Shown in pieces: positions 7,332 to 39,262 of a stretch of 64,000 nucleotides of DNA; the first letter of the stretch is position 1; every line of letters starts with the position of its first letter. The position numbers and the translations under genes are program-made. Below the pieces are notes generated by a model, which ran no database searches, was not told where the DNA came from, and worked only from the letters and a program-made list of their open reading frames with translations. The DNA is from Octopus vulgaris (lineage: Eukaryota), in the NCBI GenBank assembly GCA_951406725.2, contig OX597819.1, positions 115,072,001-115,136,000 on the forward strand, read 5' to 3'.

Positions 7332-7491
7332 CTCTTCATATTGTTTACTTTCTCTTCAATCCCGCGAATGCAGTCTTCCTTTGTACATGCCCTCTCTAAA
7401 TATACAAAAGGCATAGTAATCGCTATAGACTCATTTAAATCAACAAATACAACAAAGAAACAGCGAAATATGGCTGACCGGATGTAGAGAC
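7332..7491 (-). promoter_or_regulatory. Putative promoter and first exon of ZNF gene 1
   Basis: Donor GAAGAG|GTAAGA at 7331. ETS-like ACCGGATGT at 7477-7485 lies in a block (ATGGCTGAnCGGAnGT..AGAC) shared with 52071-52092. Confidence 0.6.
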
Positions 7492-7819
7492 AAAACTAAT
7501 CCTAAGTTGAGAAACATTGTCAAACATGTTTCATATATTAATATCCTCTCTACTATTGCTTTCTGCTAATGCCAACAATAATTATATAGCGTTAATTCAG
7601 ATTTTCACATTCTGCTAATTTAGGAGCATTTTCGATAATATTTTCTTTTATTTCGTTTCAGTATATCTAAGATACCAAGCTGTGTTTTTTAGTTAACTAT
7701 TTACTCGTCTCGCTTGAATAGATTAACTTATTTCGAATATTAATTAATGATTAACAAAACTTTTTTGGAGAAGGAATTTATAATACGGAATATTTTAATA
7801 AATAAACCGAGTGAAAGTG

Positions 7820-10160
7820 ATTACGGTTATTACTTTAAATTGGGCCACAAAAGAAAAAAAAGTGTAATAGGTATAGAACAGCGTGTATTAAAGTAATAGG
7901 AAAACAAAAATTTGCGCCAACGAACGGAGGTGTGGGTAGAGGACTTTCGGGAAATTCACACGATCCGACTTTTTCTCTCATAATTTTTAGAAAAATGGAT
8001 ATCTTTCGATGAAATTTTACATAAATACCTTTAAAATCGCATAGATTACGATTATAAAGAAATTTGTGGGGAAAAATCTTTCCGAGTGGGTGGGAAGGAC
8101 TTTCAAAGAGAAAGAAATTATATTTTAGTTTGAGTGTTATAATAATAATAAAACATTGTGTACAGTGCTCAGGTGCACAACAACTCATCTAAAGTGTATG
8201 TATAGTACATAGGGTAATGCACAAGCGTCAGGAAAAGAACAGTGCATGGGGAAAAGTTTTGAAAAACATTTTAAGATTAATCATTTTTGACTTGAGCAGT
8301 AGCTAAACGTTTTAAAAAAGATCCCATGAATTAAGGTGAGAGAAACAAATTCATAAATACAGTGTTGAATATGGTTTTACTATGGGAAGAAAGTTAAGGG
8401 CGATTTAGCTGTAGTTTTTAGTACATCTCACGACCTTTTGATACCTTCCGTGTGTTTAATATTTTCTCCAAATAAAACATATTTGAGTAATGGAAACAAG
8501 ATGTGGCAAAACTGCAGATGAGTACCCCACGACTTTGTTGCCTCATAACTTCCAACAAAAAAAAAAAAAAACATTTACACCCTTGAGTTAGTTTGAGTGC
8601 GCTCAAATTGCGATGAATAGCCAATAGCTAGCTAGTCGTAAGTAGTCGATCCTACAACAACTACCTAGCAAAGTAAATAAAACACAAAATAAATAATTTT
8701 TTTTTCACAAAGTAAATAATTTTTTTTAAACAAAGTAAATAAAACAGTAAATCATTTTTTTTTAAACAAAGTAAATAAAACAAAAACACAAAGTAAGGAT
8801 CGACTAGTCATGACTAGCTAGCGCGGAGCACCGGGGTCACACGTGTTCATTTTCGAAGACTTACTCCTAAAGCATGGCGCGTTGCGACTCTTGCGAAGTC
8901 GCTTTAAATGGCGGTATTTGGAGTTTCTACAAGAATGACGAAGCATCTATTGCGTTTTTAACTGAACACGGCGTCCTGCCACTTACTCGGAATTGTCCGA
9001 CCTGCAATACCCCATGTACTTTGCGCAAAGGGACAAACATGTGGCGCTGTCGTAAGATGGTGCGACGACGTCGGCAGGCTAAAAGAGAATGCGGATACTC
9101 CATATCTACATTTAAGAACACTTTTCTGGAACAGCTCCGTCTACCGCCTTCGCAGTTTTTGGCTTTTGTGAACCACTTCCTCCAACCATCCTGGTCAATC
9201 AATTCGGTAATGGAAAACCTTGAACTCACCCGTAAAACCTCCAGAGATTGGTTATCTCTGTGTGCAGAGGTCTGCCAGTATTGGGCAGAAAACCAACAAA
9301 ATGTGATAGGAGGACCGGGACTTGAAGTTGAGGTTGACGAAACGGTTCTGGTCCGTCGGAAATACCAACGCGGCAGGATTGTGAAAACGGTTTGGCTTTT
9401 TGGCGGACTGGAACGGTTGACCAAAAAAGCATTTGTGGTTCCACTGTCAACTGAATGTGACGAGGGCGACAAACGGGATGTTAAGACTCTCATTCAACTC
9501 ATAACCCGCTACATCAGACAGGGATCAATAATCTATAGCGACTGTCGGCGTACCTACAGTAACCTAGACAACCTGGGCTATACGCACTATCAGATTAACC
9601 ACAGTGATCCCCTTAACACATCAAATGACACGCACAATATTGAGCAGTTATGGAAAAGCCTCAAGAAGTGCATTATTCGACCCGGAATGAGGCTTGCCAA
9701 TCTGAAGCAGTACGCCGCTCGGATGCTTTTCCTGAGAGCCGTCTCACCGCCAACCCACTCACTTCATAATTTTCTTTTGGAGGCTGCAAGATTATACAAA
9801 GTTTCTGATGACCCGGAAGACTGTATACCTGTTCCTGATGTCGGTCACCAATAACTCCTTAACGGCGCATTTTTTTTTATACTGTAAAACATTCCAACGG
9901 TGGAGATATGCTAAAAACAACAGCTAAATTACCCTTAGTGAAACCATATCCAACACCGTATTTATGAATTTGTTTCTCTCACCATGATACATGGGATCTT
10001 ATTTTAAAAACTTTTTTCTATTACTCAAAATAAATGAATCAAAATTTTTTCCAAACTTTTTTTCCATTACACTCAAGTAAAAAAAAATAATGAATTTTTT
10101 TTCTCCTCGAAAGTCCTCTCTCCACCCGCTCGGAAAAAAATTTTCCCTACATATTTCTTT
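7820..10160 (+). mobile_element. Merlin (IS1595-like) DNA transposon with long decayed inverted repeats
   Basis: About 8057-8430 is the diverged reverse complement of about 9893-10160. The left arm is interrupted by a retroposon tail (about 8139-8248) and the right arm is truncated. Both arms match the foldback at 38358-39262. Confidence 0.8.
8874..9854 (+). CDS. Merlin/ISXO2-like (IS1595-family) DDE transposase, intact 326-aa ORF
   Basis: N-terminal Zn-ribbon CPTC..WRC. Motifs VEVDET..RRKYQRGR..WLFGGLER, IYSDC and NHS..HNIEQLWKSLK give an intact D-D-E. Start context aagcATGG. Confidence 0.9.
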   Translation: MARCDSCEVALNGGIWSFYKNDEASIAFLTEHGVLPLTRNCPTCNTPCTLRKGTNMWRCRKMVRRRRQAKRECGYSISTFKNTFLEQLRLPPSQFLAFVNHFLQPSWSINSVMENLELTRKTSRDWLSLCAEVCQYWAENQQNVIGGPGLEVEVDETVLVRRKYQRGRIVKTVWLFGGLERLTKKAFVVPLSTECDEGDKRDVKTLIQLITRYIRQGSIIYSDCRRTYSNLDNLGYTHYQINHSDPLNTSNDTHNIEQLWKSLKKCIIRPGMRLANLKQYAARMLFLRAVSPPTHSLHNFLLEAARLYKVSDDPEDCIPVPDVGHQ

Positions 10161-10387
10161 AGGGTTTAATTTTATTTAATTTTTGATTATTTTTACGCTT
10201 TTTTAACTCTTCTTCGTTATTCTCATTCACTCGTTATTGCTTTCTCTCTCTCTCTGTCCGTGCTTGTTCTTGAATGTGTGCCTGTGTGTTGTTTTTATGT
10301 GTTGTGGAACATAGATATAACGAAATTATGCCAGCAAAAAGCCTTGCATATTTGTTCTTGCCTGCTTTGTGTGTATGTAGAATCTAC

Positions 10388-10707
10388 GGATCTTTTCCTT
10401 TTGAACGGCACTGATTTGGCCAATCCAGTCAATTCTATTGTTGATGATATTGGTATGTTGTTACTCCATGAATATATTATATGTAATTTTATTTTACTCT
10501 TTTCTAGGTAGGATTTCTTCCTAATAGATACTTTTCACCTTTGTGTGTTGGGCACCGAAATATTTTTTCTTCTTTGTGTTTTATAAGAGTCATTTCTCTC
10601 TGGCATTGCACACAATGCGGAGAAACGTCATTCAAAGTTTTCTTTTCCTTCAGGAAGGAATATACGGTATCGAAGTCTTTGACGATACTTTCTATATCAT
10701 ACAACAT
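10388..10707 (-). pseudogene. Internally deleted Merlin element: transposase N-terminus fused to a GGATCTTTTC-type TIR
   Basis: MLYDIES..FLKEKK..CVQC..FRCPTH, then a frameshift. GGATCTTTTCCTTTTGAACGGCA at 10388-10410 matches the MITE TIR at 12700 and 24059. Confidence 0.7.
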
Positions 10708-10929
10708 ATTTAATAATATATTTTAAACTTAAATAATTTTTTTTTTAACAGACGTAATTAATTTCTTCAATATCTCACAGTTCAACTGGAATTGTAAAGT
10801 GAAAATAAAATCTACAAGACCACGTGGTAAGAATTCAATTAGCTTTGAATGCTCTGATTGGTTAGATTTTAGAACTCTCTCCTTCTCCAGCTTCATGCCA
10901 TCGTTTTAAGAAAAAAAAGGAAAACAAAA

Positions 10930-11234: not shown

Positions 11235-12094
11235 ATTTCTGCTTATTTGTCGTAATTGCTTAATTAAGACTTTGTTTAAATTGAAAGGTGCAAATATGTG
11301 ACTATGTGACGATTACAGAGAGACATCTATATGAGCTGCTGTAATAACATCTTTCACTGGGTTCAAGCAAACATCACTCAATGAGATGGCCTTGGGTTTC
11401 AGATCTCCCTAGATAAAGAAAATATAAAACAGAATTTATCATTAAAATAAATCATTATGCTGACACATGTTGATACATGAAACAAAACATTTGCGACAAA
11501 AGCAGTGAAGTGAAAATGGAAACTGGTCGGGCAAACACTGAAACAGCCTGAGTTATGTACCTTGCTACGTTAAAGTGGAGCGTTGCCCAAGTTGGACTAG
11601 AAGACACTATTAATATATTTTTATCTAATTAAACAAATGTAAACCTTTTTGCGTATACTTGTGAATGGGCAGTCATGGATAATTTATCCAGTCAGATAGA
11701 ATAATTTCCCCCATTAGCCATTCATTTGCCTATATCTACCACCGAACATTTATATAAAAGGTGGTTCTAGCAACTGATACAAATGGTATGTTTGTATTAA
11801 ATTTGGAAATAAAATATAATCCTTAATTCTGATCAAAGTTTTTATCTCCAGATGAGAAGACAAATCTCCCACAATTTAAGTAGCTAAGAAGTTTAGAATG
11901 ACTAAACTACTGGGGTTTTATAACTAAGGCACAATAATAAATAATAGTTTTTTTTTTAAATGTCTAATTTTTTTTACACAAATTAAATAATATTTTTCGA
12001 ACAAAGTAAATAAAAAGCAAATAGCAAATAAAAAATTGTTCTTGCAATTCGTTCGAAAATGCCACCAAACAATAAAATAAATTGTCGAAGTTCA

Positions 12095-12530
12095 TTTGAT
12101 TTACTTGAATGTGAAACCATTCTAAAAGGTATTTCAGAATGTTTTCAAAATATTCCTTCCCACTTTTTCCGTATTCTTCTCTCCAAAAGAAATTCATCCA
12201 GGTACGATTCCACCATGTTCGTGTGTACCCCCATCATAGTCTTGAAACGTCTTTTTGCATTCTTCCAATAACATTCCACAGAAATTTTCCGAATGGTTCA
12301 CTTTGAAATGGGTGTATTTTGGTGTCATCCATTTCATTAATACCATTATACGCACCCCAACAATCGGAATATATAGTCGTACCTGGTTTTTATGAATTTT
12401 TTGATAAGGGGTAAAAGAGTTTCAGAGGAACGGTCAGGTACGAAGACTAGAAACCCTTTCTTGTCTTCTCGATTCCATTCTCCCAAAGCCCACCTCTCCT
12501 GTGGCATTCTACCTCTGTTGTATTTATTTT
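12095..12530 (-). pseudogene. Merlin transposase C-terminal half, frameshifted, flanked by inverted repeats (about 11964-12030 / 12551-12610)
   Basis: KYNRGR..W..GFLVFVPDRSSETLL..KPGTTIYSDCWGAY..VNHSENF..YWKNAKRRFK..YLDEF.WR. Confidence 0.85.
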
Positions 12531-12699
12531 CGTGAGATATTCAATTTTTTCTTTGCTTTTTATTTACTTTGTTCGAAAAATATTTAATTTGTGTAAAAAA
12601 ATCATATACGTTTAAAAAAAAAAAAAAAAGTTTGTTTATAAAAAATTATTTATTCACTTAGTTTAAAAAATTATTTACTTTGTTCGAAAAATATTATAT

Positions 12700-13112
12700 G
12701 GATCTTTTCGGTTTGAACGGCAGTTTTTTCTAGCGGCGTCATATGAAATTGTCACCCATAATTATGACCCTAGTATCGATCTATTGCATTTCAATCTGTT
12801 TTAGGGTTAGGGGTGGGGGGAAGGGTATCTTTTTTCTTCACAAATGTAAGTAAACCCAATCTGTTTCTTAAACGAGGGACATATTCATACTGCACAGAAT
12901 GTTTTTTTTTTACCTCAATAGACGTCAGTGATTGGTTGAAATTACAGAAATTGAAGAAAAAAGTAACAAATATCTTACAAACTATAGATTTTTCTCGATA
13001 AAGCCAAGTAAAAATGATGTTTTATAAACACATTCTACCAGTATACGAAGTTTAAAATTTTTTAGTTACCTAGAAATTATGTTAAAAACTGCCGTTCAAA
13101 CCGAAAAGATCC
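12700..13112. mobile_element. Merlin-type MITE (GGATCTTTTCGGTTTGAACGGCAG TIRs)
   Basis: About 28-bp TIRs at both ends. Opposite-orientation copy at 24059-24464. Confidence 0.9.
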
Positions 13113-13695
13113 CATATTTCGACTTTAATTTCGAGCATTTCGGCAATTTTAACCAATCGCTGACCTCCATTTGGGGTGAAAACAGATTGGGTTTATTTAC
13201 ATTTGCGAAGAAAAAAAGATACCCTTCCCTCACCCCTAACCCTAAAATAGATTGAAATGCAATAGATCGATACTAGGGTTATAATTATGGGTGACAATTT
13301 CATTTGACACCGCTAGAAAATAAATCCCATTTTCCGTAGCGGTGTCGTATGAAATTGTCACCCATAATTATAACCCTAGTTTCGATCTATTGCATTTCAA
13401 TCTATTTTAGGGGTGGGGGAAGGTATCTTTTTTTCTTCGCAAATGTAAATAAACCCAATCTGTTTCTTAAACGAGGGACATATTCATACAGCACGGAATG
13501 TTTTCACCCCAAATGGAGGTCAGCGATTGGTTGAAATTGCCGAAATGCTCGAAATTAAAGTCGAAATATGTTACAACATATAGAATTTTCTCAATAAAGC
13601 CATGAAAAAGTGGTGTTTTATAAACACATTCTACCAGTATACGAAGTTTAAAAGTGTTTAGTTAACTAGAAATTGTGTTCAAAAGGAAAATATCC
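13113..13695. mobile_element. Related MITE plus inverted partial copy forming a hairpin
   Basis: 13114-13316 is the reverse complement of 13337-13568 (one deletion) around a loop of about 20 bp. Terminal GTTCAAAAGGAAAATATCC ends at 13695. Confidence 0.8.
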
Positions 13696-14084
13696 TAATA
13701 TATATATGTAGCCAGACTTTATTTACTTAGTTTAAAAAATTATTTACTTTGCGTTTTAATCGCGCGTGCGCGAATCTATTCATTTGCATACGCGCAAGTC
13801 GATGTTGATGTACTTGACTCAATCAGTCTCCTCAAGTACCGCATGTTGCCCTATGATCTAAAGGTAGTTTTTGAGTGGGATGGTCATGCGACACTGGCGT
13901 AAGCCACAGCTGTGATCTCACTTTATTTGCCGGGTCTTCTCAGTTAGAGTGTATCTCCCGAGGGAAATCCTGGAACGAATCCCAACTGCTCAGTAGAGCT
14001 ATCTATTAGAAAATTGAAGAAATACCATGACATTAAAGGGAAATAACTTCTACAAGGATTCGCTGAAGCCGTCGGGAGTTAGAG

Positions 14085-38357: not shown

Positions 38358-39262
38358 AGTACTCGGTTAATGTTTACTTTAACTCCCGGTCACGAAAACA
38401 AAACAAAACAAAAAAAAGTGTGATGGGTGTAAAAAAATGTGTTAAATGAATACTAAAACAAAAATTTGCGCTTACGAACCGGGATGAGGGTGGGGTGGGT
38501 ACTTTCGGAAAATTCACAAGATCTTATTTTTTCCCTCATAACTTTGAGGAAAATGGGTATCTTTTAATGAAATTTTATACAAATACCTTCCAAACGGCAT
38601 AGATTACGATTATAAAGAAATTTGTAGGGAAATTTTTTTCCGAGGGGGTGGGGAGAAGACTTTCGAAGAGAAAAATAATTTTTTTGCTTGAGTGTTATGG
38701 AAAAAGTTTGAAAAAAATTTTTTAGATTCATTTAGTAATAGAGAAGAGTTTTAAAAGACCCCATGCATCATAGTGAGAGAAACGGCGTTGAATATGATCT
38801 TACAACGGAAAAAAAAGTTAAGGGCGATTTAGCTGTTGTTTTTAGCACACTTCCACCGTTGGGATCTTTTTAAAAACCTTTTTCTATTAAATGAAAAATA
38901 AATGAATCTAAGAAATTTTTTTCGAACTTATTTCCATTACACTCAAGCAAAAAAGTAATTTATGAATTTCTTCCTTTCGAAGGTCGTCTCCCCACTCCCT
39001 CGGAAAAACATTTTCCCCACACATTTCTTTATAATCGTAATCTATGCCGTTTGAAAGGTATTCATTAAAAGATACCCGTTTTCCTTAAAAGTTATGAGGG
39101 TAAAAATCGAATCGTGTGAATTTTCCGAAATTCCTCTCCCTACGCCCCGGTTCATTAGCGCAAATTTTTTGTCTTCATATTCGTTTAATACGCATTTTTT
39201 TTTACACCTATTACACATTTTTTTTCGTAACCGAGAGTTAATGTAAACATTAACAAAGTACC
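38358..39262. mobile_element. Non-autonomous foldback derivative of the Merlin element at 7.8-10.2 kb
   Basis: Long inverted arms (GTACTcgGTTAATGTTTAC / GTAAACATTAACaaAGTACC). 38410-38860 is colinear with 7854-8430. Confidence 0.88.

What the first reader, a model, noticed from the sequence alone, without database searches (positions are those of the whole stretch)
8874..9854. Intact Merlin transposase inside decayed ends: domestication candidate between divergent ZNF genes
Seen: an uninterrupted 326-aa ORF with Zn-ribbon, D-D-E triad and good start context, visibly more GC/CpG-rich than the flanks. Its inverted arms have diverged from each other by many substitutions and indels; the left arm carries a retroposon insertion and the right arm is truncated. 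Every other DNA transposase in the window is broken. Known: Merlin elements are eukaryotic IS1595 relatives. Inference: the ORF is under selection, either as a co-opted gene or as an immobile helper that mobilises the MITEs in trans.
Basis: partly seen in the sequence, partly recalled or inferred. Interest (0 to 1): 0.72.

Follow-up and report, generated by a model that had tools for sequence, protein, structure and literature searches.

The report
Disarmed Merlin transposase kept open, octopus
An old, immobile jumping gene in an octopus genome has kept an open reading frame that is likely transcribed, while its sampled sister copies are broken; its cutting site is predicted to be crippled, so it is likely a young, weakly maintained host gene that would hold back related jumping genes, though chance survival is not excluded.

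Summary
Observation confirmed, with corrections. The 326-aa Merlin ORF lies in an old insertion (left end 83% like its relatives, right end lost). It has one intact 97% paralog 300 kb away, made by a duplication not bounded by the element's ends; 22 of 22 other aligned copies are broken. It is not a pristine transposase: D-D-E survive, but W225R, A227T, H252D, Q254H, R258Q and a 4-residue deletion cluster beside D2 and E, and a 1-bp deletion near the end gives a new tail. Contigs of six small RNA-like runs cover it. Open-frame survival is unlikely by chance (about 1e-3 per copy), but amino-acid constraint is weak: branch dN/dS about 0.7, like dead copies, and one second-organism contig carries a stop (R64*). 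The helper idea is not supported: no young matching MITEs were seen and young canonical transposases exist elsewhere. A second, independent disarmed-but-open Merlin pair sits in another zinc-finger cluster on contig C21. Best reading: a young co-opted, likely non-cutting transposase, probably a Merlin repressor (co-option about 0.6). The scan noted tamed Merlin genes before on other DNA of this genome. Interest 0.45.

The parts
7826..8140 (+). Left terminal inverted repeat, outer part, starting 5'-GG
   Evidence: high-copy family (1951 first-look candidates, 40 scored), window copy 83% like 19 others; relatives show GG...CC ends and 8-bp TSDs
8138..8248 (.). Interspersed repeat with (TAA)n end inserted in the left arm; also the left breakpoint of the duplicated block
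8249..8466 (+). Left terminal inverted repeat, inner part
8621..8625 (+). CCAAT motif shared with the upstream region of family copies L007 and L011 (possible native promoter element; inferred)
8627..8840 (.). MITE-like insertion (27-bp inverted ends at 8627-8653/8796-8822, 23-bp internal repeats) between the CCAAT motif and the ATG; no TSD found
8874..9854 (+). Merlin transposase-derived ORF, 326 aa: Cys/His N-terminus, helical region, RNase H-like core with D155, D223, E257
9534..9659 (+). Degenerate catalytic segment, codons 221-262: W225R, A227T, 4-residue deletion after codon 244, H252D, Q254H, R258Q
9798..9854 (+). New 18-residue tail from a 1-bp deletion three codons before the family's stop
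9903..10161 (-). Right terminal inverted repeat, truncated (outer ~230 bp, terminus and TSD missing)
8138..10353 (.). Block duplicated, inverted, about 300 kb away (G000:C6:114779033-114781323); paralog ORF intact
7332..7479 (-). Exon ending at a GTAAGA donor, head-to-head with the ORF, likely the first exon of the ZNF gene at 480-2111 (the join itself not seen)

Best explanation
An old Merlin insertion that has lost its right end keeps an open, likely transcribed reading frame whose protein is predicted to fold and bind DNA but likely not to cut, and which would act as a weakly maintained dominant-negative repressor of related Merlin transposons. Shown: open frame, lost end, old age of the ends, intact paralog, altered catalytic segment, contig cover in RNA-like runs, similar subterminal end sequence in younger Merlin families. 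Inferred: selection on the frame (statistical), loss of cutting, translation. Untested: binding to Merlin ends or to active transposase, and repression. Constraint is weak and may now be lapsing.
For: Frame: 0 internal stops and only two harmless indels on a branch of about 0.165, against 2-11 disablements (mean 7.2) in 13 near-full-length dead copies on tips of 0.04-0.12; Poisson P(0) about 1e-3 to 2e-4 at the age given by the ends; stops alone P=0.04 at d=0.09, 0.005 at 0.165. Structure: dN at conserved columns is 0.43 [0.18-0.76] of that at variable columns; 1 of 23 conserved C/G/W/P changed against 73 of 425 in dead copies; private departures 5 of 16 in codons 221-262 against 4 of 71 elsewhere, Fisher p=0.009, segment chosen after looking; AlphaFold2 mean pLDDT 89.7, integrase-like fold. 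Expression: contigs cover the ORF in 6 of 6 small runs laid (6 studies, 2 organism labels; one contig spans it without gaps), unique flanks mostly near zero; X1 and X4 hold a contig that leaves the DNA at a splice donor. Motive: younger families (96-98% alike, canonical transposases) have ends similar to this family's (score 127 against shuffled max 87.5). Parallel case: an unrelated Merlin on C21, also open, duplicated, with W225G, a shortened same loop and D1 lost. Precedent: the inactive 66-kDa P protein represses P transposition (PMC5443660, passages).
Against: Branch dN/dS about 0.71 is within the range of 15 dead tips (0.28-1.35), and three dead copies give conserved/variable ratios as low (0.39-0.46). 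Departures at conserved columns overall, 13 of 87, are within the dead range of 9-27%; outside the segment 4/71 against 164/1311 is p=0.09. In codons 146-308 dN is about equal to dS. Paralog 16 N: 10 S is not significantly below neutral (p=0.06); no disablement since the duplication has P about 0.08 at the dead-copy rate. Variants in run contigs not shared with the paralog: 6 missense (one at conserved R201), 1 nonsense (R64*, run X8, depth 23.5), 1 synonymous. R127L and F129L alter the likely DNA-reading helix. D-D-E are intact, so loss of cutting is inferred only. No ortholog outside the two near-identical organisms was found.
Confidence: 0.38

Rival explanations
1. A dead transposon whose frame survived by chance and is transcribed passively next to a ZNF promoter; both paralogs are ordinary pseudogenes-to-be.
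For: dN/dS like dead copies; conserved-site dN 0.084 equals the neutral age from the ends (0.07-0.09); nonsense allele and excess of missense variants; many old copies exist (129 protein matches), so the best of many could be lucky; the long branch is mostly in the N-terminal half and may reflect a mosaic ancestor.
Against: P(open frame) about 1e-3 per copy, a few per cent over tens of copies; a second independent open, disarmed, duplicated Merlin with about five in-frame indels; paralog-type sequence is also in RNA-like contigs although the paralog has no ZNF ORF within 40 kb.
Confidence: 0.28
2. A co-opted DNA-binding host regulator (transcription or chromatin), unrelated to transposon defence, with paralogs diversifying their N-terminal DNA-binding part.
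For: Same frame and fold evidence; changes in the likely recognition helix; 24 of 26 paralog differences in codons 1-128, and 14 of 18 differing codons in the first 126 of the C21 pair; head-to-head with a ZNF exon, as in a young Drosophila case with dN/dS 0.7 (PMC13548663 section 9).
Against: Weak constraint and a nonsense allele; synonymous differences cluster in the N-terminus too (9 of 10, p=0.001), which points to gene conversion of the 3' part rather than to adaptive change.
Confidence: 0.22
3. An immobile but catalytically active helper that mobilises Merlin MITEs in trans.
For: D155, D223, E257 and K264 are intact; thousands of end-sharing copies exist.
Against: W225 (97% conserved), H252, Q254, R258 and the F-V loop are lost; best end or MITE matches are 76-86% over long stretches and sampled copies are at most 89% alike apart from one duplicate pair (40 candidates scored per search); canonical transposases exist in young families.
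Confidence: 0.05
4. A member of a young active Merlin family with naturally imperfect ends.
For: Highly imperfect Merlin TIRs are reported (PMC8101967, passages).
Against: Only one near-identical copy among 44 matches, next best 81% or less; the duplicate's breakpoints are not element ends; right terminus missing.
Confidence: 0.02

Closest known systems
Merlin superfamily DNA transposons (IS1595 / ISXO2-like, PF12762; PMC8101967, passages read)
   Same: DDE_Tnp_IS1595 domain, D-D-E, 5'-GG end, relatives with 8-bp TSD, 54% identity to intact homologs.
   Different: Right end and TSD gone, insertions in the left arm, catalytic segment altered, new tail, copied by non-transposon duplication.
Putative domesticated Merlin genes of Stentor, Symbiodinium and Perkinsus (PMC8101967, passages read)
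   Same: Preserved ORF without mobile ends, spread by segment duplication, DDE region partly degenerate.
   Different: An animal; ends still recognisable, so it can be dated and compared with its dead sisters; synteny across species not shown here.
LOC26532114 of the Drosophila obscura group (PMC13548663, sections 9 and 10 read)
   Same: Young, lineage-restricted, full-length transposase likeness, dN/dS 0.7, modest expression, head-to-head with a host gene.
   Different: That gene is Tc1/mariner, has lost its DDE domain, gained an intron and has orthologs in four species with a significant test; here D-D-E remain, no intron was seen and the test is not significant.
P-element 66-kDa repressor (PMC5443660, passages read)
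   Same: Inactive transposase-derived protein that could repress its own kind (proposed here).
   Different: Made by splicing or truncation, repression shown by experiment; here full-length with point changes and repression untested.
C. elegans MAB-31 (PMC2921377, passages read)
   Same: Databases label some homologs 'mab-31-like'; MAB-31 is a nuclear host protein.
   Different: The paper never mentions transposons; its Merlin origin is recalled and was not tested here.

Membership tests
Merlin superfamily (origin) | DDE_Tnp_IS1595 domain with D-D-E | tested here: met
Merlin superfamily (origin) | Terminal 5'-GG inverted repeats | tested here: met
   left end GG at 7826, arms 87% alike; family copies have both ends
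Merlin superfamily (origin) | 8-9 bp TSD | tested here: inconclusive
   seen in relatives L042 and L050; none here because the right end is lost
Active autonomous Merlin element | Two complete ends | tested here: not met
Active autonomous Merlin element | Young dispersed copies bounded by the ends | tested here: not met
Active autonomous Merlin element | Canonical residues around D2 and E | tested here: not met
   15 of 89 departures against 5 of 89 in young copy L069 and a median of 4.6% in homologs
Domesticated transposase gene | Immobile, low copy, intact ORF | tested here: met
Domesticated transposase gene | Transcribed | tested here: met
   contigs of 6 small runs; RNA nature is a tool guess, backed by a splice-donor break in X1 and X4 only
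Domesticated transposase gene | Purifying selection (dN/dS clearly below neutral copies) | tested here: inconclusive
   0.71, like dead tips; frame retention and site pattern favour selection; nonsense allele against
Domesticated transposase gene | Syntenic orthologs in other species | not testable with these tools
   organism B holds a 99%-alike ORF but no flanking genes were seen; no relatives offered for G000
Domesticated transposase gene | Protein made, host function shown | not testable with these tools
   needs experiment
Transposase-derived repressor | Binds element ends or active transposase and lowers transposition | not testable with these tools
   only end-sequence similarity shown

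The most novel reading that the evidence does not exclude
Octopus repeatedly captures Merlin transposases from successive invasions and disarms them at the same places (the tryptophan after the second aspartate, the loop before the catalytic glutamate, R258), keeps them as duplicated pairs in zinc-finger clusters with fast-changing DNA-reading ends, and uses them as a renewable, protein-based defence against later Merlin families, alongside or in place of KRAB-like control.
Probability: 0.15. Interest if true: 0.75.

Novelty: new member of a known kind. Interest (0 to 1): 0.45.

Why it matters
Domestication is usually seen long after the fact. Here the ends, the dead sisters, a paralog and a convergent second case are all in one genome, so the first 20-27 million years of a possible co-option can be measured. 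Merlin domestication in print rests on protist candidates (PMC8101967); five paper searches showed no report of this gene or of a Merlin-derived repressor. If the repressor reading holds, it would show how an animal with continuing Merlin invasions controls them. If it fails, the locus is a useful warning that an open, transcribed transposase frame is not enough to call a gene domesticated.

Tried and rejected
GC/CpG richness as a sign of selection: rejected, dead copies share it. Indels in flanks but not in the ORF after duplication (19 against 0, naive P=1e-5): set aside, because the flanks are homopolymer-rich; at the dead-ORF rate P is about 0.08. Positive selection on the N-terminus between paralogs: not supported, synonymous changes cluster there too. 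Retrocopy or transposition as the origin of the paralog: no poly(A), TSD or element end seen at its breakpoints. Ortholog search: 3 hits at near length, 2 at shorter length; the O. bimaculoides protein P0122 has the family's normal loop and is not the ortholog; such searches see annotated proteins only. Upstream exon: a 30-nt loose end before 8894 in run X8 has no match in the window, left unexplained; no splice joint into the ORF was listed. No listed run is on record as RNA. The conserved/variable test on the C21 pair (0.31) is not clean, since two dead copies scored lower through cross-subfamily branches. The profile search of representatives never ran. Fold search gave only distant integrase folds, no solved Merlin structure. 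No complex was predicted. Supplements of the papers were not read; the repeat library of PMC13282606 and the sequence lists of PMC8101967 could hold this locus.

Full report
Observation. The ORF is real: 8874-9854 (+), 326 aa, Pfam DDE_Tnp_IS1595. The genome is most likely Octopus vulgaris: the ORF of sister copy L012 is protein P0003, so named by NCBI on a contig of the same length as C9. The left end starts GG at 7826; relatives show GG...CC ends and 8-bp target duplications, the Merlin signature (PMC8101967, passages). The left arm has a repeat inserted at 8138-8248 and a MITE-like insert at 8627-8840; the right arm ends at about 10161 with no terminus. The element cannot move as a unit.

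Age and copies. The end belongs to a large old family: 19 sampled copies are 84% alike on average, the window copy 83% like them, and its two arms 87% alike. That is 0.07-0.10 substitutions per site, about 20-27 million years at the rate of 0.0036 per million years quoted in PMC13282606 (passages). A DNA search gave 44 matches; 30 loci were fetched and 24 aligned (6 short 3' fragments dropped). One is a 97% paralog 300 kb away with an intact ORF; the other 22 are 69-81% alike and each has a stop or frameshift of its own. The duplicated block, 8138-10353, is not bounded by element ends. Of 26 differing codons (16 N, 10 S), 24 lie in codons 1-128, synonymous ones included, which suggests conversion of the 3' part.

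The protein. Against 119 homologs all seven Cys/His positions and D155, D223, E257, K264 are kept, and AlphaFold2 gives a confident model (pLDDT 89.7) with an integrase-like core. But W225R, A227T, H252D, Q254H, R258Q and a 4-residue deletion sit beside D2 and E; R127L and F129L sit in the likely DNA-reading helix; a 1-bp deletion three codons before the family's stop adds a new tail. Private departures are 5 of 16 in codons 221-262 and 4 of 71 elsewhere (p=0.009, segment picked after looking). Loss of cutting is inferred from conservation, not shown.

Selection, for. Thirteen near-full-length dead copies (13 of 22; two are near-duplicates) average 7.2 disablements, minimum 2; the window copy has none that matters on a longer branch (about 0.165). 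Poisson P is about 1e-3 to 2e-4 at the age of the ends, a few per cent over tens of copies. dN at conserved columns is 0.43 [0.18-0.76] of dN at variable ones; 1 of 23 conserved C/G/W/P changed against 73 of 425.

Selection, against. Branch dN/dS is 0.71, inside the dead range of 0.28-1.35; three of 15 dead tips have equally low conserved/variable ratios; in codons 146-308 dN is about dS, and the excess length of the branch lies in the N-terminal half, which may reflect a mosaic ancestor. Outside the catalytic segment the deficit is p=0.09. Variants in run contigs that are not in the paralog are 6 missense, 1 nonsense (R64*, run X8, organism B) and 1 synonymous; the stop is absent from the X13 and X16 contigs of the same organism label. 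One missense (A>G, T38A) could be RNA editing. So the frame looks protected over the long run, the sequence only loosely, and the protection may be lapsing or buffered by the paralog.

Expression. 19 of 24 listed runs hold the stretch; none is on record as RNA. Seven were laid. The six small ones (six studies, two organism labels) cover the ORF, one in a single gap-free contig; unique flank bins such as 7670-7886 are near zero. X1 and X4 contigs leave the DNA exactly at a GTAAGA donor at 7332 on the minus strand, which shows spliced RNA in those runs and places a likely ZNF first exon head-to-head 1.4 kb away. Contigs give no strand, start or level. An X8 contig matches the paralog's alleles at 13 places, and the paralog has no ZNF ORF in the 40 kb fetched, so the promoter may travel with the block.

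Helper idea. End and MITE searches found no young matches (40 candidates scored each). A protein search (129 matches) led to younger families, 96-98% alike, with canonical transposases such as L069; PMC13282606 lists 2 recently active Merlin families. Their ends resemble this family's ends. The genome needs no helper here but has had continuing reason for a repressor.

A parallel case. At C21:40760058 and 40766299 lies a 4.3-kb tandem pair from another old Merlin family (41-42% protein identity): 314 aa, open, D1 changed to G, W225G, the same loop shortened, R258H, about five in-frame indels against relatives, paralog differences mostly N-terminal, within a ZNF cluster; 13 of 14 other aligned loci show stops or frameshifts and one partial locus (L104) shows neither. 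Its expression was not tested.

Mechanism and verdict. Most likely: a stranded Merlin copy stayed transcribed, lost catalytic competence, and was kept because a folded, non-cutting transposase can occupy ends or poison active complexes, as the 66-kDa P protein does (PMC5443660, passages); 0.38. General DNA-binding regulator 0.22; chance survivor 0.28; helper 0.05. It works like a young domesticated transposase such as Drosophila LOC26532114 (PMC13548663, two sections) but does not yet pass the membership tests of significant purifying selection and synteny. Papers seen as listings only; passages of PMC2921377 and PMC10027918 (the latter never names Merlin). Earlier scan notes describe tamed Merlin and hAT genes on other DNA of this genome; they were not checked and carry no weight in the scores. 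New member of a known kind; interest 0.45.

Noticed in passing
L077/L078 = G000:C21:40760058-40760981 and 40766299-40767222: Independent open but disarmed Merlin ORF pair (D1 to G, W225G, shortened loop, in-frame indels only) in a ZNF cluster; a stronger domestication candidate than this locus.
   Followed up: partly
L069, L072, L083; L074, L076, L081; L070, L084: Young Merlin families, 96-98% alike, ends 93-98% alike; L069 (C22:40462696) encodes a canonical full-length transposase.
   Followed up: partly
window 8874-9854 against L002: Paralogs differ by 6.2% in codons 1-128, 0.3% in the rest and 2.4% in both flanks: likely gene conversion between inverted copies 300 kb apart.
   Followed up: partly
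window 8894, run X8 record 17: A contig has 30 foreign bases before 8894, not found in the window: an insertion, a chimera or a distant upstream exon.
   Followed up: partly
window 10552-10713 (-) and 11925-12700 (-): Two other broken Merlin fragments; the second has 23-bp subterminal repeats like those of the MITE at 8627-8840.
   Followed up: partly
window 38403-39224: Non-autonomous copy sharing this element's ends; best genome matches 76-78%.
   Followed up: yes
L113, G000:C21:40748778 (+): A 444-aa open frame that looks pogo/tigger-like (by eye) in the same C21 ZNF cluster.
   Followed up: no
G000 C7:45207936, C8:23128859, C3:2802379, C1:224802551, C4:176429790: A more distant Merlin family (34-36% protein identity) with many open frames; L087 and L088 are 95% alike.
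   Followed up: no
window 12700-13750: Nested, 88-100% complementary inverted repeats and a 600-bp direct duplication.
   Followed up: no
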